64,000 bases of DNA from Vicinamibacteria bacterium (GTDB taxonomy: Bacteria > Acidobacteriota > Vicinamibacteria > Fen-336). Under the pieces are notes generated by a model that did no database searches, was not told the DNA's origin, and saw only the letters and a list, made by a program, of their open reading frames with translations. The stretch lies in the NCBI GenBank assembly GCA_023701125.1, contig JAMPXO010000009.1:5264-69263 (forward strand), in the 5' to 3' direction. Every line of letters starts with the position of its first letter. Position 1 is the stretch's first letter. Position numbers and translations under genes: made by a program. Below are positions 9,618 to 20,480 of the stretch, piece by piece.

Positions 9618-10628
9618 ATGAGCGAACCCTTCGCCGCCTGGCCCAAGACCGAAGTCCACCTCCACCTCGAGGGCACCGTGTCGCCCGAGACGCTGTGGGA
9701 CCTGGCGACGCGCAACGGTGTCCCACTTCCGGCTGCGTCGCTCGCGGAGCTGAAGGCCCACTACGCGTTCGACGGCTTCGACCGCTTCCTCACGCTGTGG
9801 CTCGCGATGTGCCGCTCGTTGCGTCAGCCGCGCGACTACGAGGAGATGGTCGACGGCTACCTCGCCGAGTGCCGGCGCCAGAACGTGCGCTACGTCGAGG
9901 CCCACTTCACGCCCTACAACCACGAGCGCTTCGGCTTCGGCGGCCGCCGCGCGCTGGACATCGTCTGCGACCGGCTGCGCGCGGCCGAGGCCGCGGGTGG
10001 CCCGGTCACCCGGCTGATCCTCGACATCCCCAGCGAGTCGGTGCCCGAGAGCGGCCCGTACACGATCGAGTTGCTCGAGCAGATCGCCGAGCCGCTGGTG
10101 GTCGCGATCGGCCTCGGCGGCCCCGAGGAGGGCTTCCCGCGGGCGCTGGTCGCCCCGTTCTTCGAGCGCGCGCGGGCGGCCGGCTACCCGTGCGTCGCCC
10201 ACGCGGGCGAGACGGCCGGCGCGTCGTTCGTGCGCGAGGTGGTCGAGCTGCTGAAGGTCCGCCGCGTGCAGCACGGCATCCGCGCGCTGGAAGACCCGGC
10301 GCTGGTGCAGGTGCTGGCCGAGCGCGAGATCTGCTGCGACGTGGCGCTGACCTCGAACTCGCTGCTGACCATCCACCGCGAGATCGCCGCCCACCCGTTG
10401 CCCGCGCTGCTCGCGGCGGGCGTGCCCTGCACGCTGTCCACCGACGACCCGCCGTTCTTCGGCACCGACCTCGACCGCGAGTACGAGCTGGCCCACCACG
10501 TGCTCGGCCTCGACCCCGCCACGCTGTGGCAGCTCAACCTCAACGGCCTCCGCTTCGGCCTCGCCGACGTAGCACTGCGCCGCCGCCTGCTCCTCGAGTT
10601 CGCGGCCTGGCGCCAGGAGAACCCGTGA
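9618..10628 (+). CDS. add: adenosine deaminase
   Basis: EVHLHLEG, AHAGE, STDDP zinc and catalytic motifs. Confidence 0.85.
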   Translation: MSEPFAAWPKTEVHLHLEGTVSPETLWDLATRNGVPLPAASLAELKAHYAFDGFDRFLTLWLAMCRSLRQPRDYEEMVDGYLAECRRQNVRYVEAHFTPYNHERFGFGGRRALDIVCDRLRAAEAAGGPVTRLILDIPSESVPESGPYTIELLEQIAEPLVVAIGLGGPEEGFPRALVAPFFERARAAGYPCVAHAGETAGASFVREVVELLKVRRVQHGIRALEDPALVQVLAEREICCDVALTSNSLLTIHREIAAHPLPALLAAGVPCTLSTDDPPFFGTDLDREYELAHHVLGLDPATLWQLNLNGLRFGLADVALRRRLLLEFAAWRQENP

Positions 10629-12721
10629 CCCGAAACACCCTCGCCGCCTTCGCCCTTGGCGCCCTGCTCGCCCCCGTCGCCACGGCGCAGACGTCGCCAT
10701 TCCTGCCCGACGCCCTGCACCGCGCGCTGGTCAACGAGATCTCGGGCGACCGCGCGTTCGAGCACGTGCGCCACCTGTCCCACTTCCACCGCACGGGCGG
10801 CAGCCACGACTTCTTCGCGGCGACCGAGTACCTGCGCGGCGCGGCGGCCGCGGCCGGCCTGAAGGACGTGGCCCTCGTGCGCCAGAAGTGGCCGGGCGCG
10901 CACGCCTGGAGCGCGACGTCGGGCGAGGCCTGGGTGCGCGGCCCCGAGGAGTGGAAGCTCGCGTCCTACGGCGAGATCGCCCTGTCGGTGGCGGACAACA
11001 GCCGCACGACCCACGTCAAGGCCGCACTGGTCGACGTCGGCGCCGGCGTGACCGACGCGGACTACGAGGGCCGCGACGTGAAGGGCAAGATCGTGCTGGC
11101 CTCCGGCGCACCCGGCAAGGTCACCGAGCTGGCGGTGTGGAAGCGCGGCGCGCTGGGCATCGTCTCATCGGTCACCAACCGCAAGGAGGCGTTCGACGCC
11201 CCCGATCAGGTCGCGTGGGCGCGGGTGCCGTACGAGGCGAAGGGGATCGAGGGCGTGGCGGACGGCACCCCCGGGACCTTCGCGGTCGTGATCTCGCCGC
11301 GCCGCGCGCGCACCCTGCAGAAGCTGGTCGCCGCGGGCCCGGTCGAGGTCGCGGTCGACATCGAGGCGTCGTTCGCCGAGCCCGCCGAGCAGGCCTACGT
11401 CGAGGGCTACATCCGCGGCAGCGAGCCGGGCGAACCGCAGGTGGTGCTGACCGCTCACATCCAGGAGGAGATGACCTCCGCCAACGACGACGGCTCGGGC
11501 TGCGGCAACCTGCTGGAGATCGCCCGCGCGCTCGACGTGCTGATCGCGGAGGGCCGCGTGCCGCGGCCGCGGCGCGACATCCGCTTCTGGTGGGTCAACG
11601 AGTTCTCGAGCGAGGAGCAGTGGTTCCGCGAGAACCCCGAGGCCCCGCGCAAGATGCTGGTGGCGCTCAACCAGGACATGGTCGGCGCCCGCCAGAGCCA
11701 GGGCGGCCGCGTGCAGTACGCCTCGCGGCTGCCGTGGAGCCTGCCCCACGCCCTCGACGACGTGATGGAGAGCGTGCTGACCGCGGTCCGCGACGGCAAC
11801 AACGAGCTGCTGACCATGCGCGGGCAGAAGATCCCACAGCCGTTCTCGAAGGAGATCGTCGCGGTCAAGGGCTCGCGCGAGCCGTTCCACGCGCGGATGG
11901 TTCCCTACTTCGGCAACACCGACCACCACGCGTTCACGCCCGCCCGTATCGGGGTGCCGGCCACGACGCTCACCAACTGGCCCGACGAGTTCATCCACTC
12001 GACGGGCGACGAGCTCGACAACATCGACGCCACCCAGCTCGAGCGCAACGCGGTGGTGATCGCCGCCGTGGCCTGGTACTTCGCCAACGTCGGCGAGGCC
12101 GACGCGCCGCTGCTGGCCACCCAGGTCGCCGCGGGCGCCCGGGCGCGTGCCGCGCTCGACTTGCGCACCGCGCAGGCCCACCTGGCCCAGGCGAAGCCGG
12201 AGGAGCGTGCGGCCGCATTTCGGGCGGCGCGCAACCTGGTCAGCCAGGCGTACGCGAAGGAGTTGAAGGCGCTCGGTTCCGTGCGCCGCTTCGCCGGCAA
12301 GGGCCGCGCCGCCGAACTGGTCGCCGCCTTCTCGCAGCGCTTCGAGGGCGCCCGCGCCGCCGACTTCGAGGCGCTGGAGCGCGCCTTCACCGCCTTCACC
12401 GGTCAGCAGCCGCCGAACGTCGCGCTCTCCGCCGAGGAGCGCAAGATGGCCGAGGAGGTCTACGCCCCGCTCAAGGACCCGGTCGCCTGGGAGTCGGCGA
12501 TGGACAAGGCCAAGCTGCCCTCGGGCCTTCACCCGATCGTGCGCTTCGAGATCCTCAACCTGGCCGACGGCCGGCGCACGACGCTCGAGGTGCACGACGT
12601 CGTCGCCGCCCAGGCGCTTTCGGCCGGCGCCTGGTACTACGGGACTGTGACGCCGGCTCAGGTCAAGGCCGTGCTCGAGGCCGCCGCGACCGCCGGCGCT
12701 TACACCCGCAAGGGTCGCTGA
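10625..12721 (+). CDS. secreted M28-family metallopeptidase with PA domain
   Basis: GTG start overlaps the add stop (GTGA). Signal peptide VTRNTLAAFALGALLAPVATAQ. HIQEEMTSANDDGSGCGNL M28 zinc-ligand region. Confidence 0.75.
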   Translation: MTRNTLAAFALGALLAPVATAQTSPFLPDALHRALVNEISGDRAFEHVRHLSHFHRTGGSHDFFAATEYLRGAAAAAGLKDVALVRQKWPGAHAWSATSGEAWVRGPEEWKLASYGEIALSVADNSRTTHVKAALVDVGAGVTDADYEGRDVKGKIVLASGAPGKVTELAVWKRGALGIVSSVTNRKEAFDAPDQVAWARVPYEAKGIEGVADGTPGTFAVVISPRRARTLQKLVAAGPVEVAVDIEASFAEPAEQAYVEGYIRGSEPGEPQVVLTAHIQEEMTSANDDGSGCGNLLEIARALDVLIAEGRVPRPRRDIRFWWVNEFSSEEQWFRENPEAPRKMLVALNQDMVGARQSQGGRVQYASRLPWSLPHALDDVMESVLTAVRDGNNELLTMRGQKIPQPFSKEIVAVKGSREPFHARMVPYFGNTDHHAFTPARIGVPATTLTNWPDEFIHSTGDELDNIDATQLERNAVVIAAVAWYFANVGEADAPLLATQVAAGARARAALDLRTAQAHLAQAKPEERAAAFRAARNLVSQAYAKELKALGSVRRFAGKGRAAELVAAFSQRFEGARAADFEALERAFTAFTGQQPPNVALSAEERKMAEEVYAPLKDPVAWESAMDKAKLPSGLHPIVRFEILNLADGRRTTLEVHDVVAAQALSAGAWYYGTVTPAQVKAVLEAAATAGAYTRKGR

Positions 12722-13717: not shown

Positions 13718-14065
13718 TCAGTCGAGCGGCGACGGCGAGACCAAGGGCGCGACTTGCGATCGCGTCGCTTCGGCCACCGCCACCGCCGCAGCCGCCGTCT
13801 CACGGTCCGGCCAGAACTCCACGTCGTAGCGAGAGTCGACGCCGTGGCTCGTGAGCTCCCCCAACTCCAGGTCAGCTAGCTGGAGCGACAGCTCGAGCCG
13901 CACGGCGCTTTGCGCGAGTTCCTCCAGGTCATGCGTTCTCGGAATCGCGTGGCCGCGAAGCGCCAGCACTGCCTTCAGGTACTTCTCCGCGGCCTGTCGG
14001 GCATGAAAACAGGCGGTGTCGTAAGGCCCCTCACTGGCGAGCGTCCGTCGCGCGTCCGAGATCAC
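13718..14065 (-). CDS. HEPN-domain protein (putative toxin of a HEPN/MNT pair)
   Basis: FHARQAAEKYLKAVL...IPRTHDLEEL HEPN signature. GTG start 46 nt after the MNT stop, same frame. Confidence 0.7.
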   Translation of the reverse strand: MISDARRTLASEGPYDTACFHARQAAEKYLKAVLALRGHAIPRTHDLEELAQSAVRLELSLQLADLELGELTSHGVDSRYDVEFWPDRETAAAAVAVAEATRSQVAPLVSPSPLD

Positions 14066-14110
14066 TGTCGCCCTTGCGGATCCAGCCGTCCGCGAGACCC
14101 CGCTGATCCT

Positions 14111-14449
14111 TCATCGCGGATACAGGGTTCTCCCTGCCGCCAGGATAGACGTGATGAACGCGTTCGGGACGTCTCGCCACTCGGCGATCTCCTGCGGCGT
14201 CCAGACCACGATGTCCTTCGAAGGAAACAGCCCCAGCAGCGCCCGCCGATAGCGGCCCGCCCGCCGATGGCGAGGGAGATCGGAGTCCTCCACGATCAAC
14301 AAGTCGAGGTCGCTGTCAGGGCTCGCGTCCCCGCGCGCGTGGGACCCGAAGAGCACAATGCGGCTCGGGCTGCCCGACGCGACGATGCGGGCGACGGCCT
14401 CGTCGAGGAGAGCCTCCGTCACGGGTGGGTACTCGACAGCAGCGAGCAT
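14111..14449 (-). CDS. minimal nucleotidyltransferase (MNT antitoxin of the HEPN/MNT pair)
   Basis: RIVLFGSHARGDASPDSDLDLL nucleotidyltransferase motif. ATG 14449 is immediately preceded by TACAAT. Confidence 0.75.
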   Translation of the reverse strand: MLAAVEYPPVTEALLDEAVARIVASGSPSRIVLFGSHARGDASPDSDLDLLIVEDSDLPRHRRAGRYRRALLGLFPSKDIVVWTPQEIAEWRDVPNAFITSILAAGRTLYPR

Positions 14450-14474: not shown

Positions 14475-15083
14475 CTAGCGCAGCGCCTCGCGGACGCAGA
14501 TCCGCAGCGCTCTCTCGACCGTCTCCAGCGCCAGGCTGGGAGCGCCGGGCTTCGCGGCCGCCTGCTGCGGCGAGTACGGGATGTGGATGAAGCCCGCGCG
14601 GGTCGACGCACCCTGCTCCGTCAGCCGGTGGCACAGCGCGAACAGCACCGCGTTGCAGACGAACGTGCCGGCCGTGTACGAGACCTCCGTCGGCACGCCC
14701 GCGTCGCGCAGCGCGGCGGCCAGCGCCTTGACCGGCAGCGGCGCGAAGTAGGCCGCGGGCGCATCCTCGACCACCGGCACGTCGACCGGCTGCGCGCCCG
14801 CGTTGTCGCGGATGCGGGCATCGCAGAGGTTGACCGCGACGCGCTCCAGCGAGATGGCGGCCCGCCCCCCTGCCTGGCCGACGCACAACACCAGCGTCGG
14901 CTGGTGACGCGCCATCGCCCGGAACAACGCGCGCGGCGCGCGCGCGAACTCCGTCGGCAGTCGCGCGACAGCCACGGTGTGGCCGGCGATGCGCGCCCCG
15001 CGCAGGCGCTTGACGGCCTCCCATGACGGGTTGACGCGCTCGCCGTCGAACGGGTCGAAGCCCGTCAGCAGCACGGTCTTCAT
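14475..15083 (-). CDS. pcp: pyroglutamyl-peptidase I (peptidase C15)
   Basis: MKTVLLTGFDPFDGERVNPSWEAV N-terminus, catalytic Cys region GTFVCN, IHIPY. GGAGG RBS. Start re-derived at 15083. Confidence 0.85.
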   Translation of the reverse strand: MKTVLLTGFDPFDGERVNPSWEAVKRLRGARIAGHTVAVARLPTEFARAPRALFRAMARHQPTLVLCVGQAGGRAAISLERVAVNLCDARIRDNAGAQPVDVPVVEDAPAAYFAPLPVKALAAALRDAGVPTEVSYTAGTFVCNAVLFALCHRLTEQGASTRAGFIHIPYSPQQAAAKPGAPSLALETVERALRICVREALR

Positions 15084-15094
15084 CGGGCCTCCAC

Positions 15095-16045
15095 TCAGCG
15101 GAAGACGATCACGTACATCAACACGACGTTGACGCCCAGCAGCGCCAGGCCGGTCGGGGCCTGGGCCCGGATCACGGCGTGCGGGTCCTTCAGCTCCAGC
15201 AGCGCGGCCGGCACGATGTTGAAGTTGGCGGCCATCGGCGTCAGCAGCGTGCCGCAGTAGCCGGACAGCATGCCGATCGCCGCCATCGACGCGGGCTCCG
15301 CGCCGTGCATCTTGACCAGCAGCGGCAGGCCGATGCCCGCGGTCATCACCGGGAAGGCGGCGAACGCATTGCCCATCAGCATCGTGAACAGCGCCATCCC
15401 GACCGCGTAGGCGATCACGCACGCCAGCCGGCTCTCGACCGGGATCACGGCCGACACCCCGCGCGCCAAGAGGTCGCCCACGCCCGACACCGCGAACACG
15501 GCGCCCAGCGCCGCCAGCATCAGCGGCAGCACGCAGGCCCAGCTCATCGCCTCCAGCAGCTCGCGCGCCGCGTGGACCGCGTCGCCCGGGCCGCGCCGGG
15601 TCAGCGCCGCCGCCGCGGTGACGGCCAGCGCGCAGGCCAGGGCCAGCGCCCACAGGGTCTGGATCTGCGGCTCGACCAGCGGCCGGCCGTTCCACGTCGC
15701 GTTCCGCAGCACGAGCAGCAGCAGCACGGTCGCGGCCGGGATCGCGAGCGCGGGGCCGAACAGGCGATGGCCGAGTCGAGCCGCGGACGCCACCCGCTCC
15801 GCGGCCGGGTCTTCCTGCCGCGGCCCGCGGGTGACGCCGCCGGAGCCCGCCAGCAGAGCGAGCGCCACCGCGATCGCCCCTGCCGCGTGCGGCCCCATCA
15901 CATCGCCGGCGAGGAACAGCAGCGCCAGCAGGCCCCAGAACGCGCCGCTGGCCTTCCGCCGCGGGTTGCCGGGGTCGCGGCTCACGTGCCAGGCGGCGCC
16001 CGCGAGCAGCGCGCCGATCGCGAGATAGATCGGCAGCAGGGTCAC
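15095..16045 (-). CDS. DUF979 family membrane protein
   Basis: GTG start overlaps the DUF969 stop (GTGA). Polytopic. Always paired with DUF969 and commonly adjacent to pcp and pxpABC. Confidence 0.7.
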   Translation of the reverse strand: MTLLPIYLAIGALLAGAAWHVSRDPGNPRRKASGAFWGLLALLFLAGDVMGPHAAGAIAVALALLAGSGGVTRGPRQEDPAAERVASAARLGHRLFGPALAIPAATVLLLLVLRNATWNGRPLVEPQIQTLWALALACALAVTAAAALTRRGPGDAVHAARELLEAMSWACVLPLMLAALGAVFAVSGVGDLLARGVSAVIPVESRLACVIAYAVGMALFTMLMGNAFAAFPVMTAGIGLPLLVKMHGAEPASMAAIGMLSGYCGTLLTPMAANFNIVPAALLELKDPHAVIRAQAPTGLALLGVNVVLMYVIVFR

Positions 16046-16752
16046 GAGCGCTCCCCCTCGCCGGGGGGCGCGGCGCGTTCGGCCTCGGCCTCGCGGGCGA
16101 GCCGGGCGTCGAGCCGCGACAGCCGGAAGCCGTGGATCAGGAACGCGGCGATCGCGGTCGGCAGGCCCCACAGCGCGATCCGGATCGGCTCGACGACGAT
16201 CCCGTTCGTCTCCAGGAAGCCCTGGATCAGCAGCACGGCACCGAAGGCCACGAACACGTCCTCGCCGAAGAACAGGCCGACGTTGTCGGTGCCGGCGACC
16301 AGGCCCAACAGCCGCTCGCGGGTGCGCGGCGGCAGCGGGCCGCTCCTTTTCGCGGCCGCCGCCTCGGCCATCGGCGCGATCAGCGGCCGCACCGTCTGGG
16401 CGTGGCCCGCGATGTTGGTCAGGCCCAGCATCGACAGCGCCTGGCGCAGCGCGAGGTAGGCCAGCAGCAGCCGGCCCGCGGTCACGGCCCGCAACCGCGC
16501 GATGAAGGCCTGGGCGTGCTCGCGCAGTCCGGAGCGCTCCAGCAGACCGATCACCGGCAGCGTCAACACGAACAACAGCAGGTAGCGGTTCTTGAGCACG
16601 CCCTCGCCGAGCAGCCGCAGCACCTCGTCGGGCGGCAGGCCCGCGAACAGGCCCGTGGCCAGGCCGGCGACTACGACCACCATCAGCGGGTTGAGGCGCA
16701 GCGCGAAGCCGACGACGACCAGCGCGACGCCGAGCAGTGGCCAGGCGTTCAT
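16042..16752 (-). CDS. DUF969 family membrane protein
   Basis: 236 aa polytopic protein. Its start overlaps the pxpA stop (ATGA). Confidence 0.7.
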   Translation of the reverse strand: MNAWPLLGVALVVVGFALRLNPLMVVVVAGLATGLFAGLPPDEVLRLLGEGVLKNRYLLLFVLTLPVIGLLERSGLREHAQAFIARLRAVTAGRLLLAYLALRQALSMLGLTNIAGHAQTVRPLIAPMAEAAAAKRSGPLPPRTRERLLGLVAGTDNVGLFFGEDVFVAFGAVLLIQGFLETNGIVVEPIRIALWGLPTAIAAFLIHGFRLSRLDARLAREAEAERAAPPGEGERS

Positions 16753-17519
16753 GCAGCCTGCCCCGGCGCGGCGACGGCGAGCCCCGCGGCGGCCAGCGCC
16801 TCGCGCAGCGCGCGGGCGAACACCGCGGCATCTGGCCGGTCGCCGTGAACGCAGATCGTGTCGGCGCGCAGGTGCACCACGCCGCCGCCACGGGCCGCAA
16901 CCTCGCCGCGCAGCGCGATCCCCACCGCCTGGGCCGCGGCCTGCACCGGGTCCTCGATCACCGCGCCCGGCCGCGAGCGCGGCGTCAACTGGCCGTCGGG
17001 CTCGTAGCCGCGGTCGGCGAAGGCCTCCTCGGCGACCGCCAGGCCTGCCGCGCGCCCTGCCGTGATCAGCGCGCTGCCGGCCAGCCCGAACAGCACCAGC
17101 CCGCGGTCGAACGCGGCCACGGCCGACGCGATCGCCGCCGCCAGGGCCGCGTCGCGGGCGGCCATGTTGTACAGCGCGCCGTGCGGCTTCACGTGGGCCA
17201 CCCGCGCGTCACAGGCGCGCGCCACGCCGGCGAGCGCGCCCAGCTGGTAGAGCGTGAAGGCGTGGGCCTCGTCGGGCGTCACCTTCATCTCGCGACGGCC
17301 GAAGCCCTGCAGGTCGGGCAGCGCGACGTGGGCGCCGATGCGCACGCCGTGACGGGCCGCGGCGCGCACGGTCGCCAACATCACCTGCGGGTCGCCGGCG
17401 TGGAAGCCGCAGGCGACGTTGGCGGAGGTGACGAACGGCAGCACCGCTTCGTCCTGTCCCATCGTCCACGCCCCGAAGGACTCGCCGAGGTCGCAGTTGA
17501 GATCGATCGTCCCGCTCAT
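16749..17519 (-). CDS. pxpA: 5-oxoprolinase subunit A (LamB/YcsF family)
   Basis: IDLNCDLGES and ANVACGFHAGDP motifs. Confidence 0.85.
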   Translation of the reverse strand: MSGTIDLNCDLGESFGAWTMGQDEAVLPFVTSANVACGFHAGDPQVMLATVRAAARHGVRIGAHVALPDLQGFGRREMKVTPDEAHAFTLYQLGALAGVARACDARVAHVKPHGALYNMAARDAALAAAIASAVAAFDRGLVLFGLAGSALITAGRAAGLAVAEEAFADRGYEPDGQLTPRSRPGAVIEDPVQAAAQAVGIALRGEVAARGGGVVHLRADTICVHGDRPDAAVFARALREALAAAGLAVAAPGQAA

Positions 17520-18520
17520 GCCCCCCTCCGTCGACTGGCGATCGCCGCGCTCCGCTCCTGGAGGGCCCGCTGCCGCGCGTGCCACGCCGCCGCCGCCGCC
17601 TCGGGTTCGACTGGCGTGAGCCGCACCTCGTCACCCGCCCGCAACTGCATCGCGCGATCGAGGTCGGCGCGAATCACGTGGGCGACGATCGGGTACCCGC
17701 CCACGGTCTGGGCGTCGACCCCGAGCAGCACCGGGCGTCCACCCGCCGGCAGTTGCAGGCAACCCGGCAGCACCGGCGCGGAGACCCGGTCGGGCGCCAC
17801 AGCCAAGGTGAGCGCGGGTCCGTCGAGCGTCACGCCCATGCGGTCGGAGTCGGAGCCGACGCTCCACGTCGCCGCGAAGAGCGCAGCGCGGGACGCCGGA
17901 GCCACCGCTGCGAGGTCGGCGCCCGGCAGTACCCGCAAGAGCGCGCGGTCGCCCAGCGCGTCGAGCGGGTGGATCGACCACGGGGCGGCGGACACCGCGG
18001 CATTCTGCCCTGCCGCGCGCCGCGGCGACGGAGTCTTCCCGGCGCTGGAAGCCGACGCCGCCTGCTCGGCCAGCACGTCGCCCGGGCGCAGGGCACGGCC
18101 CGCGAGGCCGCCGAAGCCGCCCCGGCGGTCCGTGCTGCAGCTACCCATCACCTGCAGCACGTCGAGCCCGCCTGCGACGGCCAGGAAGGCGCGCGCGCCG
18201 CGGGTGACGCGACCCAACTCGAGCACGGCGCCCGCGGGCAGCGCGACCGGACGCCATCCCGGCACCGCTCGCCCCGCGCACCGGGCCTCGACCTCGCCGC
18301 CCGTCAGCGCGATCACCGCGGGCGCGCCGAAGCGCAACCGCGGCCCCAGCAGCGTCAGCTCCAGCCCCGCGGCCTCCGGGTCGTTGCCGACGAGGCGCTG
18401 GGCGAGGACGTGCGCGGCCTGGTCGGCGGCCCCCGCGTGGACCACGCCGAGGTGGCGCAGACCGGGGCGCCCGCGGTCCTGCACGGTCGTCAGCAGGCCG
18501 GCCGTGAGCACCTCGATCAC
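17516..18520 (-). CDS. pxpC: 5-oxoprolinase subunit C (KipA / allophanate hydrolase subunit 2 family)
   Basis: GLLTTVQDRGRPG N-terminal motif. GTG start overlaps the pxpB stop, and its own stop overlaps the pxpA start. Confidence 0.8.
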   Translation of the reverse strand: MIEVLTAGLLTTVQDRGRPGLRHLGVVHAGAADQAAHVLAQRLVGNDPEAAGLELTLLGPRLRFGAPAVIALTGGEVEARCAGRAVPGWRPVALPAGAVLELGRVTRGARAFLAVAGGLDVLQVMGSCSTDRRGGFGGLAGRALRPGDVLAEQAASASSAGKTPSPRRAAGQNAAVSAAPWSIHPLDALGDRALLRVLPGADLAAVAPASRAALFAATWSVGSDSDRMGVTLDGPALTLAVAPDRVSAPVLPGCLQLPAGGRPVLLGVDAQTVGGYPIVAHVIRADLDRAMQLRAGDEVRLTPVEPEAAAAAWHARQRALQERSAAIASRRRGA

Positions 18521-19197
18521 GGCGCGACCTCGACCAGAGCCGTGTCCAGCTCCGCCGCAGCGGTCGCGCGGAAGCGCACGTGGTCGCCGGGCAGCAGCAG
18601 CGAAGGCGGCTCGCGGTGCGGCTCGAACAGCACGGCGGAGGTGCGCCCGATCAGCCGCCAGCCACCCGGCGAGTCGCGCGGGTAGATGCCGGCCTGGGCC
18701 CCGCCGATCGCCACCGCGCCACGCGGCACGAGCGGGCGTGGCGCAGCGCGGCGCGGCATCGCCAGCGCGGGATCGAGGCCCAGCAGATATGGGAAGCCCG
18801 GCTGGAAACCGAGCAGGGCCACCGTGTAGACGCCGCCAGCATGGCGAGCGATCACCTCGTCGACCGACAGGCCCGCGTGGGCGGCCAGCTCGGCGAGGTC
18901 CGGGCCGTCGTAGCAGCACGGCAGCGTGACCGTGCGCACGGCGCCGGCGGCGCGGGCGGCGTGCGGACCCGGGACCGCCACCCGCACGAGCTCCGCGAGG
19001 ACCGCCTCCGGATTGCCCGCGGGCGCCAGCGCGACGGCGACGCTCGCATACGCGGGCACGACGTCGGCCACGCCCGGGATCGCGGCGGCCCGCACGGCTG
19101 CGGCCAGCGCGTGGGCCCGCGCGTTGGCCACGGCGTCGAGCGTGGTGGCGAAGACGAAGACGAACCCGGAGTCCCCGAGCGGCTGCCAGCGGCCCAT
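18517..19197 (-). CDS. pxpB: 5-oxoprolinase subunit B (KipI / allophanate hydrolase subunit 1 family)
   Basis: Carboxyltransferase-like domain (DSGFVFVFATTLD..., GFQPGFPYLLGLD). Confidence 0.8.
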   Translation of the reverse strand: MGRWQPLGDSGFVFVFATTLDAVANARAHALAAAVRAAAIPGVADVVPAYASVAVALAPAGNPEAVLAELVRVAVPGPHAARAAGAVRTVTLPCCYDGPDLAELAAHAGLSVDEVIARHAGGVYTVALLGFQPGFPYLLGLDPALAMPRRAAPRPLVPRGAVAIGGAQAGIYPRDSPGGWRLIGRTSAVLFEPHREPPSLLLPGDHVRFRATAAAELDTALVEVAP

Positions 19198-19304
19198 TGC
19201 GCGCGAGTCTAGTGCGCTCCCCGCCCGCGACGCGAAATCCCGTGCTTCGCCCTGCTGACGAGCGTACGATCCGCGCACCCACTCGACCAAGAAAGCGTGA
19301 GCCC

Positions 19305-20480
19305 ATGAGCGATGCCTGGTGGTACGCCGAAGGGGAGAACCGCATGGGCCCGGTGCGAACCCGGGACCTCGGCGCCCTGCTCCGGGGCTCGCTGCCCGCG
19401 GGCACGCTCGTCTGGCGCGAGGGCTTCCCCGACTGGAAGCCGGCGGACCAGGTGCCCGAGTTCCGCGCCTGGCTGGCGCCGCCGCTCGCGGCCGCGGCGT
19501 CTCACGCGGCCGGCGAGGAGGCCCCCACCTGGAACCCGATCCGGCTGGTCAGCCGATCCCTGGCCACGGGAGGTCGTTTCGACCGCAACGAGTACCTGCT
19601 CGCGAACCTGACCGCCATGGCGCCCGCGCTGCTGATCGAAGGCCTGGCCTTCTGGAAGACGCTGTCCGGCGAGCCGGCGCTCGTCGCCCATTGGCAGACC
19701 GTCGTCCGGCTGGTCTGGATTCTGACCGCCCCGATCTGGTTCTTCGTCGGGATCGGCAGCATCCTGCGCCGACTGAACGACCTCGGGAAACCGGGTTGGT
19801 GGCTGGTCGGCGCGTTCCTGCCTGGCGTCAACGCGATCGTCGGGTTGTACCTGCTGTTCACCCCGGGTGAGCCCTGGACTCCCGGCAGCGCCCGGTCGCC
19901 TGGAGGGCCCGCGCCACCGGCCGCCGGCCGCTCGGTCGCCTCGACGGTCGTGCTGGTGGGCGGCCTCGGCTGCCTCGGCGTGATGGGCCTCGGCATCGTC
20001 GCCGCGATCGTCGTCCCTTCGCTCGCGCGAGCCCGGCAAGCCGCCAACGAGGCGGGCGCGCTCGGCGACCTGCGCGCCATGGTCGCCGCGCAGAAAGCCT
20101 ACGCGCTCGTCAACGGCAGCTTCTTCGAGGGCGACGGAGCGTGCCTGAGCGCTCCGACCAGGTGCCTGGCGGGCTACAAGGGCGCGCCGCTGCTGGACCC
20201 GGCCGTGGTCGACTCCGCACGTAACGGCTATCGGTGGGAGATCTATCGTGGCCAGGTGTTCGCCCCCGGCACGGCGCCCCTGGGGCGCTCGCCGTCGAGC
20301 ACCAACGCCTTCGCCTTCGTCGGCGTGCCGCTCTCGGACCTCCACGGCCGCCGCCTGTTCTGCGCCGACTCCTGGGGGGCCCTCTGCGCCGCCGACACCG
20401 GACCACCGGCGCAGCTCGTCGAACAACTCCCGAGCACGCCCTGGGTGCGCTGCGCGAGCCGCTGTCAGCCGCTCCCGTAG
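19305..20480 (+). CDS. fusion membrane protein: N-terminal DUF4339 (GYF-like) plus DUF805 membrane core plus pilin-like C-terminal helix domain
   Basis: WWYAEGENRMGPV..TLVWREGFPDW (DUF4339). ILRRLNDLGKPGWW (DUF805). AAIVVPSLARARQAANEAGALGDL pilin-like helix. Confidence 0.6.
   Translation: MSDAWWYAEGENRMGPVRTRDLGALLRGSLPAGTLVWREGFPDWKPADQVPEFRAWLAPPLAAAASHAAGEEAPTWNPIRLVSRSLATGGRFDRNEYLLANLTAMAPALLIEGLAFWKTLSGEPALVAHWQTVVRLVWILTAPIWFFVGIGSILRRLNDLGKPGWWLVGAFLPGVNAIVGLYLLFTPGEPWTPGSARSPGGPAPPAAGRSVASTVVLVGGLGCLGVMGLGIVAAIVVPSLARARQAANEAGALGDLRAMVAAQKAYALVNGSFFEGDGACLSAPTRCLAGYKGAPLLDPAVVDSARNGYRWEIYRGQVFAPGTAPLGRSPSSTNAFAFVGVPLSDLHGRRLFCADSWGALCAADTGPPAQLVEQLPSTPWVRCASRCQPLP

What the first reader, a model, noticed from the sequence alone, without database searches (positions are those of the whole stretch)
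14475..19197. Complete translationally coupled pyroglutamate-handling operon: pxpB-pxpC-pxpA-DUF969-DUF979-pcp
Six co-directional genes with 4-nt overlaps at four of the five junctions (the DUF979-pcp junction has an 11-bp gap) encode the ATP-dependent 5-oxoprolinase (PxpABC), the DUF969/DUF979 membrane pair (proposed but unproven 5-oxoproline transporter) and pyroglutamyl-peptidase I.

The tight coupling argues that all six act as one functional unit: release, import or export, then ring opening of 5-oxoproline. It is a clean natural test case for assigning function to DUF969/DUF979.
Basis: partly seen in the sequence, partly recalled or inferred. Interest (0 to 1): 0.6.

Follow-up and report, generated by a model that had tools for sequence, protein, structure and literature searches.

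The report
Known pyroglutamate-utilisation operon, compact copy
The six genes are real and form a tightly packed operon for taking up and opening the ring of pyroglutamate (5-oxoproline), but the same operon is widespread in bacteria and its logic was published in 2017, so this copy is ordinary.

Summary
On the minus strand, 19197 to 14475, lie pxpB, pxpC, pxpA, DUF969, DUF979 and pcp. Four junctions are 4-nt start/stop overlaps, and an 11-nt gap containing GGAGG precedes pcp. All six proteins match their Pfam families far above the cut-offs.

The interpretation, one unit for 5-oxoproline handling, is supported by comparative genomics done here. I analysed 61 genome loci that had at least 5 kb on both sides of DUF979:
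- DUF969 sits directly upstream of DUF979 in 61 of 61.
- pxpABC is present in 50 of 61 and pcp in 37 of 61.
- The identical six-gene order is the commonest arrangement (25 of 61). It occurs in Lysobacter, Cupriavidus, the Bacillus cereus group, Undibacterium and a syntenic Vicinamibacteria genome.
- Natural DUF969-DUF979 fusion proteins exist in the same context.

None of this is new. The association goes back to Niehaus et al. 2017. A 2024 paper placed DUF979 in the ion-transporter superfamily as a heterodimer with DUF969. A 2026 Campylobacter jejuni mutant lost growth on 5-oxoproline.

The window adds only a very compact copy in an uncultured acidobacterium, flanked by two lineage-specific insertions. 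My own fold searches were inconclusive. Low interest.

The parts
18517..19197 (-). pxpB, 5-oxoprolinase subunit B (226 aa, ATG start, first gene)
   Evidence: PF02682 CT_C_D at 225 bits. TIGR00370 PxpB equivalog at 165 bits, above its 145.55 cut-off. Closest solved structures include E. coli YbgJ, 5dud_B. There is no Shine-Dalgarno sequence. A -10-like TAGACT lies 8 nt before the ATG.
17516..18520 (-). pxpC, 5-oxoprolinase subunit C (334 aa, GTG start overlapping the pxpB stop as GTGA)
   Evidence: PF02626 CT_A_B at 270 bits. TIGR00724 at 259.8 bits, above its 230.2 cut-off. The narrow PxpC equivalog NF045499 gives only 232 bits against a 500 cut-off. Best solved structure is E. coli YbgK, 5dud_A, E 1e-53.
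16749..17519 (-). pxpA, 5-oxoprolinase subunit A (256 aa, ATGA overlap, GGAGGGGGG upstream)
   Evidence: PF03746 LamB_YcsF at 337 bits. NF003814 PxpA at 354 bits, above its 226 cut-off. Solved relatives are 1v6t, 2dfa and E. coli YbgL 1xw8.
16042..16752 (-). DUF969 membrane protein, small subunit of the putative 5-oxoproline carrier (236 aa, ATGA overlap)
   Evidence: PF06149 at 284 bits and no NCBIfam name. It lies directly upstream of DUF979 in 80 of 80 loci. Natural fusions to DUF979 exist.
15095..16045 (-). DUF979 membrane protein, large subunit of the putative 5-oxoproline carrier (316 aa, GTGA overlap, GAGGGGGAG upstream)
   Evidence: PF06166 at 356 bits. About 10 hydrophobic segments. 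The invariant motifs MGNAFAAFP and GYCGTLLTPMAANFN fall in the low-confidence loops of the model.
14475..15083 (-). pcp, pyroglutamyl-peptidase I (202 aa, 11-nt gap with GGAGG, TAG stop)
   Evidence: PF01470 at 249 bits. TIGR00504 at 257.7 bits, above its 201.75 cut-off. Best solved structure is 4gxh_A at E 6.5e-65, and 1aug_A also matches. E80, C143 and H167 align with the catalytic Glu/Cys/His. No signal peptide or transmembrane segment is present.
19198..19301 (.). 104-bp divergent intergenic region, the presumed promoter region of the operon
   Evidence: No sigma-70 consensus, no Rfam hit and no operator-like inverted repeat were found. Homology to the syntenic relative L001 ends 15 nt upstream of the pxpB ATG. 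Both genomes keep a TAnACT hexamer 6-8 nt before the ATG.

Best explanation
This is an intact copy of the widespread bacterial operon for using and salvaging 5-oxoproline (L-pyroglutamate). It sits in a high-GC Vicinamibacteria-like acidobacterium.

Proposed mechanism:
1. DUF969 and DUF979 form one heteromeric secondary carrier in the inner membrane that takes up free 5-oxoproline. According to the literature each subunit is a single-repeat half of an ion-transporter-superfamily, DASS-like carrier.
2. Cytoplasmic Pcp, a Glu-Cys-His cysteine peptidase, removes N-terminal pyroglutamate from peptides and adds to the same intracellular pool.
3. PxpA with the PxpB-PxpC complex opens the lactam ring at the cost of ATP, giving L-glutamate for carbon and nitrogen metabolism.

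The six genes are probably made from one transcript that starts at or just before the pxpB ATG, with downstream genes translated by coupling or re-initiation.

Shown here: gene identities, intact catalytic residues of Pcp, the overlaps, and conservation of the gene order. Inferred: substrate, direction of transport, stoichiometry, single transcript and leaderless start.
For: - Gene model and overlaps.
- Family assignments are far above cut-offs, and the solved relatives are YbgJ/YbgK/YbgL and Pcp.
- Co-occurrence in 61 loci with at least 5 kb on both sides: DUF969 next to DUF979 in 61 of 61, pxpABC in 50 of 61, pcp in 37 of 61, both in 34 of 61, identical order in 25 of 61.
- Two of the seven loci lacking pxp and pcp instead carry a fused Hydantoinase_A/B ATP-dependent lactamase (oxoprolinase family) directly upstream of DUF969.
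- The B>C and 969>979 junctions are the ones conserved as overlaps, with median -4 nt in 28 loci. This fits two obligate complexes.
- Natural DUF969-DUF979 fusions of 551-572 aa lie in the same pxpBCA-fusion-pcp context.
- Literature: PMC11467057 reports ion-transporter-superfamily similarity and a predicted heterodimer with ipTM about 0.9. PMC12795558 reports that a C. jejuni cj0552-4 mutant loses growth on 5-oxoproline as nitrogen source.
- No internal terminators beyond chance.
Against: - No transcript, transport or enzyme data exist for this organism.
- My monomer models were only moderate (pLDDT 62.6 and 76.2). Fold searches gave only weak DASS, TRAP and AbgT hits mixed with generic helix bundles.
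- The co-occurrence sample is the best 80 of at least 597 matches, so it is biased towards relatives of the query.
- PxpC misses the narrow NCBIfam equivalog cut-off.
- PxpABC paralogues can prefer other lactams, such as butyrolactam in P. putida (10.1101/2021.12.09.472016).
- The C. jejuni mutant also deleted DUF2891 and was described by its authors as preliminary.
- No regulator is adjacent.
Confidence: 0.78

Rival explanations
1. DUF969/DUF979 carries pyroglutamyl-peptides or another small carboxylate or lactam rather than free 5-oxoproline, feeding Pcp first.
For: Some loci have only DUF969-DUF979-pcp within 10 kb (5 of 80). Others have neither pxp nor pcp and instead carry DUF2891, a PfkB kinase, PdxA or an M20 peptidase nearby. 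There is no biochemical proof of the substrate.
Against: The pair is linked more often to pxpABC (50 of 61) than to pcp (37 of 61), and 13 loci have pxpBCA-969-979 without pcp. The C. jejuni mutant fails on free 5-oxoproline (PMC12795558). A carrier of about 550 aa in total, related to dicarboxylate carriers, fits a small anion better than a peptide.
Confidence: 0.08
2. The membrane pair exports 5-oxoproline as detoxification rather than importing it.
For: 5-Oxoproline is an unavoidable and toxic by-product of glutamate and glutamine (10.1101/2024.05.01.592088). The direction of transport cannot be read from sequence.
Against: An exporter co-translated with the enzyme that consumes the same compound at the cost of ATP is wasteful. 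The loss-of-growth phenotype on external 5-oxoproline indicates uptake (PMC12795558). Analogous operons pair PxpABC with an importer, PxpT/YcsG (PMC13274462).
Confidence: 0.04
3. This PxpABC is a paralogue acting on a different lactam, and the operon handles that compound.
For: P. putida has PxpABC paralogues with different lactam specificities (10.1101/2021.12.09.472016). PxpC scores below the PxpC equivalog cut-off. PxpB and PxpC diverge faster than the other four proteins from the closest relative, at 72% and 69% identity against 81-90%.
Against: Pcp, whose only known product is 5-oxoproline, is in the same tightly coupled operon. PxpB passes the equivalog cut-off and PxpA passes the subfamily cut-off. 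Best solved relatives are the E. coli YbgJKL proteins, which belong to the characterised 5-oxoprolinase.
Confidence: 0.06
4. The six genes are not one transcription unit: internal promoters split them, or transcription reads through into the downstream toxin-antitoxin pair.
For: In other genomes the pxpC>pxpA, pxpA>DUF969 and DUF979>pcp junctions are often loose or interrupted, with gaps above 100 nt in 8, 5 and 4 of 28 loci. Only 25 nt separate pcp from the next co-directional gene, with no terminator.
Against: Here four junctions overlap and the fifth is 11 nt, leaving no room for intergenic promoters. No terminator-like site beyond chance was found.
Confidence: 0.12

Closest known systems
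PxpABC 5-oxoprolinase cluster of E. coli (ybgJ-ybgK-ybgL) and B. subtilis (Niehaus et al. 2017, J Biol Chem 292:16360; cited from PMC12795558 and PMC11467057, as the paper itself was not readable here)
   Same: The same three protein families in the same B-C-A order as E. coli. Best solved relatives are YbgK, YbgJ and YbgL. Enterobacterial relatives even carry the DUF969-DUF979 genes and pcp inserted after ybgL.
   Different: E. coli K-12 itself lacks the membrane pair and pcp at this locus (my recollection of ybgIJKL-nei, not tested). The window's PxpC is 334 aa against 310 for YbgK and matches it in two separate stretches.
C. jejuni cj0552-cj0554 (DUF969, DUF979, DUF2891), PMC12795558
   Same: The same membrane pair, and the only reported genetic link to growth on 5-oxoproline.
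   Different: The C. jejuni cluster has DUF2891 and no adjacent pxpABC or pcp. The window has no DUF2891. The DUF2891 arrangement was seen here in L028, L080 and L084.
C. glutamicum pxpR-pxpTABC (PMC13274462) and B. subtilis ycsG
   Same: The same logic: an uptake carrier co-expressed with PxpABC to grow on 5-oxoproline.
   Different: The carrier there is an NRAMP/APC-type protein (PxpT/YcsG), unrelated to DUF969/DUF979. That system has a dedicated GntR repressor, PxpR, that senses 5-oxoproline. The window has no adjacent regulator and adds pcp.
Ion-transporter superfamily carriers (Pfam clan CL0182: DASS/VcINDY, TRAP DctM, AbgT), as proposed for DUF979 in PMC11467057
   Different: The window's carrier is split into two genes, one repeat each, instead of two repeats in one chain. 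Similarity was not significant in my own tests.

Membership tests
PxpABC ATP-dependent 5-oxoprolinase | Three subunits of families LamB/YcsF (PxpA), CT_C_D (PxpB) and CT_A_B (PxpC), encoded together | tested here: met
   PF03746, PF02682 and PF02626 all match at E < 1e-66, in adjacent overlapping genes.
PxpABC ATP-dependent 5-oxoprolinase | Scores above the curated NCBIfam cut-offs for PxpA, PxpB and PxpC | tested here: inconclusive
   PxpB equivalog TIGR00370 is met (165 > 145.55). PxpA subfamily NF003814 is met (354 > 226). PxpC passes only the domain-level model TIGR00724 (259.8 > 230.2), and the PxpC equivalog NF045499 is not met (232 < 500).
PxpABC ATP-dependent 5-oxoprolinase | ATP-dependent hydrolysis of 5-oxo-L-proline to L-glutamate | not testable with these tools
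   Needs an enzyme assay. Paralogues with other lactam specificities exist (10.1101/2021.12.09.472016).
Pyroglutamyl-peptidase I (peptidase C15) | Family match above the curated cut-off, with the Glu-Cys-His catalytic triad | tested here: met
   TIGR00504 scores 257.7 against a 201.75 cut-off. E80 (LERVA), C143 (FVCN) and H167 (IHIP) align with the same motifs in 4gxh. Numbering is offset by one from B. amyloliquefaciens Glu81/Cys144/His168, which I recall from memory.
DUF969/DUF979 two-gene membrane pair (putative 5-oxoproline carrier) | A PF06149 gene immediately upstream of a PF06166 gene, both polytopic membrane proteins | tested here: met
   284 and 356 bits. The two genes overlap by 4 nt. 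Hydrophobic segments are present. The same adjacency is seen in 80 of 80 loci.
DUF969/DUF979 two-gene membrane pair (putative 5-oxoproline carrier) | Genomic association with 5-oxoproline enzymes | tested here: met
   pxpABC and/or pcp lie within 10 kb in 54 of 61 loci, and an oxoprolinase-family Hydantoinase_A/B fusion in 2 more. The sample is biased towards relatives of the query.
Ion-transporter superfamily (CL0182), single-repeat heterodimer | Fold similarity to DASS, TRAP or AbgT carriers and a DUF969-DUF979 heterodimer | tested here: inconclusive
Translationally coupled operon | Stop/start overlaps or very short gaps with internal ribosome-binding sites, and no internal terminators | tested here: met
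   Four 4-nt overlaps and one 11-nt gap. GGAGG-like sequences precede pxpA, DUF979 and pcp. Terminator-like sites do not exceed chance.
Translationally coupled operon | A single polycistronic transcript | not testable with these tools
   No transcript data are available.

The most novel reading that the evidence does not exclude
DUF969 and DUF979 together are a 'split' elevator-type carrier of the ion-transporter superfamily, with one hairpin-bearing repeat per gene. It would be dedicated to uptake of free 5-oxoproline, and the fused forms found here would be the evolutionary intermediates towards ordinary two-repeat carriers. This compact operon would then be one more natural example, not the discovery itself. 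A more unusual variant, that the pair carries pyroglutamyl-peptides for Pcp, is not excluded but is unlikely (about 0.08).
Probability: 0.6. Interest if true: 0.35.

Novelty: already known. Interest (0 to 1): 0.15.

Why it matters
5-Oxoproline forms spontaneously from glutamate and glutamine in every cell and in amino-acid-rich habitats. Operons like this one explain how bacteria recover it as glutamate. The one open point is direct biochemical proof that DUF969/DUF979 is the carrier.

This window does not make that proof more accessible. The same operon exists in cultured, tractable bacteria. The source here is an uncultured acidobacterium, whose closest relative in my searches is a metagenome-assembled genome.

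The useful by-products of this check are:
- a quantified co-occurrence table;
- the observation that only the pxpB>pxpC and DUF969>DUF979 junctions are universally tight;
- natural DUF969-DUF979 fusions that could serve as single-chain targets for structure and transport work.

Tried and rejected
- **Plus-strand reading.** The long plus-strand ORFs across the region have the wrong codon-position GC pattern, so the genes are on the minus strand.
- **Longer starts for pxpB** (GTG 19278, TTG 19290). Rejected, because the Pfam model already aligns from residue 3 of the ATG-19197 protein.
- **Riboswitch or other RNA element.** No Rfam hit except a chance microRNA match at E 0.88.
- **Sigma-70 consensus promoters.** None anywhere, as expected for 74% GC.
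- **Operator-like inverted repeat upstream of pxpB.** None.
- **Sequence similarity between DUF969 and DUF979.** hhalign found none.
- **Sequence relatives with solved structures for either membrane protein.** None.
- **Weak Pfam hits of DUF979 to ion-transporter families.** None.
- **Fold searches with monomer models.** Inconclusive.
- **Niehaus 2017.** The paper could not be read, by DOI or by PMC id, so its content is cited second-hand.
- **Fused Hydantoinase_A/B neighbours in L049 and L072.** They cannot be called 5-oxoprolinases with certainty. The best solved relative is annotated N-methylhydantoinase, and the NCBIfam equivalogs (caprolactamase, acetophenone carboxylase) are far below cut-off.


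Full report
**1. Observation**

The window has about 74% GC, so raw ORF lists are full of shadow ORFs. Codon-position GC and a frame plot show six consecutive coding frames between 14475 and 19197, all on the minus strand. Start-codon inspection gives:

| Gene | Coordinates | Start | Length |
|---|---|---|---|
| pxpB | 19197..18517 | ATG | 226 aa |
| pxpC | 18520..17516 | GTG | 334 aa |
| pxpA | 17519..16749 | ATG | 256 aa |
| DUF969 | 16752..16042 | ATG | 236 aa |
| DUF979 | 16045..15095 | GTG | 316 aa |
| pcp | 15083..14475 | ATG | 202 aa |

Four junctions are 4-nt overlaps (GTGA, ATGA, ATGA, GTGA). The last junction is an 11-nt gap, GTGGAGGCCCG, which carries a ribosome-binding site. In my rough gene calls for the whole window, 6 of 35 other co-directional junctions are 4-nt overlaps, against 4 of 5 here. 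The packing is tighter than the local background.

**2. Identities**

- All six proteins match their Pfam families end to end at E-values from 1e-66 to 1e-106.
- NCBIfam names PxpB (equivalog cut-off met), PxpA (subfamily cut-off met) and Pcp (equivalog cut-off met).
- PxpC passes the domain-level model but not the narrow PxpC equivalog. DUF969 and DUF979 have no NCBIfam name.
- The best solved relatives are E. coli YbgK, YbgJ and YbgL and bacterial pyrrolidone-carboxylate peptidases.
- Pcp keeps the catalytic Glu80, Cys143 and His167. It has no signal peptide or membrane segment, so it works in the cytoplasm.
- DUF969 and DUF979 are polytopic membrane proteins.

**3. Surroundings and source**

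The closest genome locus is L001, a Vicinamibacteria (Acidobacteriota) metagenome-assembled genome. It shows 69-90% protein identity across the operon and full synteny on both sides: GGDEF, PPK2, ZIP and two Band-7 genes, then the operon, then a PALP enzyme, an M28 peptidase, adenosine deaminase and SulP.

Two things present in the window are absent from L001:
- A divergent gene for a GYF_2/DUF805 membrane protein (19302..20480, plus strand) lies between the Band-7 genes and pxpB.
- A lower-GC MNT/HEPN toxin-antitoxin pair (14449..14111 and 14065..13718, minus strand) starts only 25 nt after the pcp stop.

A still closer relative, L081 (96% identity), has a sulfatase gene after pcp instead. 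The flanks are therefore variable while the operon is stable. No regulator gene is adjacent.

pxpB has no Shine-Dalgarno sequence. A -10-like TAGACT lies 8 nt before its ATG, and L001 has TACACT 6 nt before its ATG. This suggests a leaderless or very short-leader transcript, which is an inference. The consensus scans found no promoters, no terminators beyond chance and no Rfam element.

**4. Comparative genomics**

A pattern scan of one genome per GTDB species with a DUF979 alignment gave at least 597 loci, of which the best 80 were kept. I located the six window proteins in them by tblastn.

- DUF969 is directly upstream of DUF979 in all 80 loci.
- Among the 61 loci with at least 5 kb on both sides, pxpABC is present in 50, pcp in 37 and both in 34.
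- The exact order pxpB-pxpC-pxpA-DUF969-DUF979-pcp is the commonest arrangement (25 of 61; 28 of 80).
- That order occurs in Lysobacter, Luteimonas, Pseudoxanthomonas, Cupriavidus, Undibacterium, Mycetohabitans, Paenibacillus, the Bacillus cereus group and Vicinamibacteria.
- Other orders of the same genes also occur, for example DUF969-DUF979-pcp-pxpA-pxpB-pxpC in Comamonadaceae.

Seven loci have neither pxp nor pcp:
- Two carry a 1213-aa or 1251-aa fused Hydantoinase_A/B protein directly upstream of DUF969. This is the other, unrelated family of ATP-dependent lactam hydrolases, to which eukaryote-type 5-oxoprolinase belongs. Its exact substrate cannot be named.
- Two carry DUF2891, as in C. 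jejuni.

In the 28 six-gene loci only two junctions are nearly always tight: pxpB>pxpC (median -4 nt) and DUF969>DUF979 (median -4 nt, 27 of 28 at 20 nt or less). This fits two obligate complexes. The other junctions are looser and sometimes interrupted. The window, L001 and L034 are the fully compacted versions.

A search with the two membrane proteins joined end to end found natural single-chain DUF969-DUF979 proteins of 551-572 aa in several independent clusters. Two of them lie in an enterobacterial ybgI-pxpB-pxpC-pxpA-fusion-pcp-nei-gltA context, and one lies next to DUF2891. Assembly frameshifts cannot be wholly excluded, but a roughly 20-aa linker and recurrence in separate clusters argue for real fusions.

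Caveat: the 80 loci are those most similar to the query, so the percentages describe this branch of the family and not all of it.

**5. Structure**

- AlphaFold2 monomer models reached only pLDDT 62.6 for DUF979 and 76.2 for DUF969.
- The least confident part of DUF979 is the stretch with its invariant motifs, MGNAFAAFP and GYCGTLLTPMAANFN. That is what one would expect of re-entrant loops that need the partner subunit, which is an inference.
- Foldseek found nothing significant.
- Profile comparison of the two families, profile searches of the PDB and permissive Pfam scans were also negative.

My own test of the ion-transporter-superfamily fold is therefore inconclusive. The claim rests on PMC11467057, which reports embedding-based and structural similarity of DUF979 to DASS carriers, a single repeat per protein and a confident predicted DUF969-DUF979 heterodimer.

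**6. What is already known**

- PMC11467057 and PMC12795558 both attribute the DUF969/DUF979 link to 5-oxoproline to Niehaus et al. 2017. I could not read that paper itself.
- PMC6904757 used the pair as the pyroglutamate uptake reaction in a Bacillus megaterium metabolic model.
- PMC12795558 reports that C. jejuni grows on 5-oxoproline as nitrogen source and that a cj0552-4 mutant (DUF969, DUF979, DUF2891) does not. The authors call the experiment preliminary.
- Other bacteria use unrelated carriers with PxpABC: the NRAMP-like PxpT/YcsG with the 5-oxoproline-sensing repressor PxpR in C. glutamicum, and a TRAP system in Bordetella.
- PxpABC paralogues in P. putida differ in lactam specificity. 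This is the main reason for caution about substrate, although the presence of pcp in the same operon points to 5-oxoproline here.

**7. Mechanism and verdict**

The best explanation has three steps. The DUF969/DUF979 heteromer imports free 5-oxoproline. Cytoplasmic Pcp releases more of it from N-terminally blocked peptides. PxpABC converts it to glutamate using ATP. All six genes would be expressed from one transcript with translational coupling.

Import is favoured over export for three reasons:
- the pairing with a catabolic enzyme;
- the analogous PxpT systems;
- the C. jejuni phenotype.

Free 5-oxoproline is favoured over pGlu-peptides because the pair is linked more often to pxpABC than to pcp.

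The finding is real and correctly interpreted, but it is a further copy of a known, widespread operon in an organism that cannot readily be manipulated. I rate novelty as 'already known' and interest as low.

Noticed in passing
window 13718-14449 (minus strand): An MNT nucleotidyltransferase (14449..14111, PF01909) and a HEPN protein (14065..13718, PF05168) form a toxin-antitoxin-type pair with lower GC (about 0.67). The pair starts 25 nt after the pcp stop on the same strand and is absent from the syntenic relative L001. A TACAAT hexamer lies 5 nt before the MNT ATG.
   Followed up: partly
window 19302-20480 (plus strand): The gene divergent from pxpB encodes a GYF_2 + DUF805 membrane protein. 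Its C-terminal part begins with a pilin-like hydrophobic segment (…IVVPSLARARQAANEAGALGDLR…). It is absent from L001, where the Band-7 genes directly precede pxpB, so it looks like an insertion that replaced the upstream region of the operon.
   Followed up: partly
window 19198-19212; L001 6869-6881: pxpB has no Shine-Dalgarno sequence. A -10-like TAGACT (window) or TACACT (L001) lies 6-8 nt before the ATG, suggesting a leaderless or near-leaderless first gene. In L001 a perfect 15-bp GC hairpin, probably the terminator of the Band-7 operon, lies just upstream.
   Followed up: partly
P0241, P0242, P0243, P0245, P0247, P0249; loci L082, L083, L084: Natural single-chain DUF969-DUF979 fusions of 529-572 aa. 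Two of them lie in an enterobacterial ybgI-pxpBCA-fusion-pcp-nei-gltA context. They are good single-chain targets for structure prediction or transport assays. In L082 pxpA is called as only 140 aa, so that assembly may contain frameshifts.
   Followed up: partly
L049 5650-9291; L072 3477-7232: In Nitrospirillum and a Paraburkholderia genome the DUF969/DUF979 pair directly follows a fused Hydantoinase_A/B protein (1213 and 1251 aa) of the other ATP-dependent lactamase/oxoprolinase family. This is a possible non-homologous replacement of PxpABC.
   Followed up: partly
L028 10948-11997; L080 10911-11930; L084 9736-10653: DUF2891 follows DUF979 in loci that lack pxpABC and pcp, as in C. jejuni cj0552-4. 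The role of DUF2891 is unknown, and it has no NCBIfam name.
   Followed up: no
window 17516-18520 (PxpC), roughly residues 150-185: PxpC is 334 aa against 310 for E. coli YbgK and matches it in two separate stretches, with an Ala/Ser-rich segment (…AEQAASASSAGKTPSPRRAAGQNAAVSAAP…) in between. PxpB and PxpC are also the least conserved proteins against L001 (72% and 69%, against 81-90% for the other four).
   Followed up: no
L008 (contig DASQNU010000058.1): A contig binned as a Bathyarchaeia archaeon carries pxpA-DUF969-DUF979-pcp-pxpB-pxpC with 35-59% identity to the window proteins. This could be horizontal transfer or a binning error.
   Followed up: no
L002 3548-7942: A Negativicutes genome has two successive pxpB-pxpC pairs around one pxpA, upstream of DUF969-DUF979.
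   Followed up: no
window 10625-12721 (plus strand): A 698-aa protein with an M28 peptidase domain is a conserved neighbour of the operon in both the window and L001, separated from it by the PALP gene and on the opposite strand. The M28 fold also includes glutaminyl cyclases (from memory), so a link to pyroglutamate formation is conceivable but untested.
   Followed up: no
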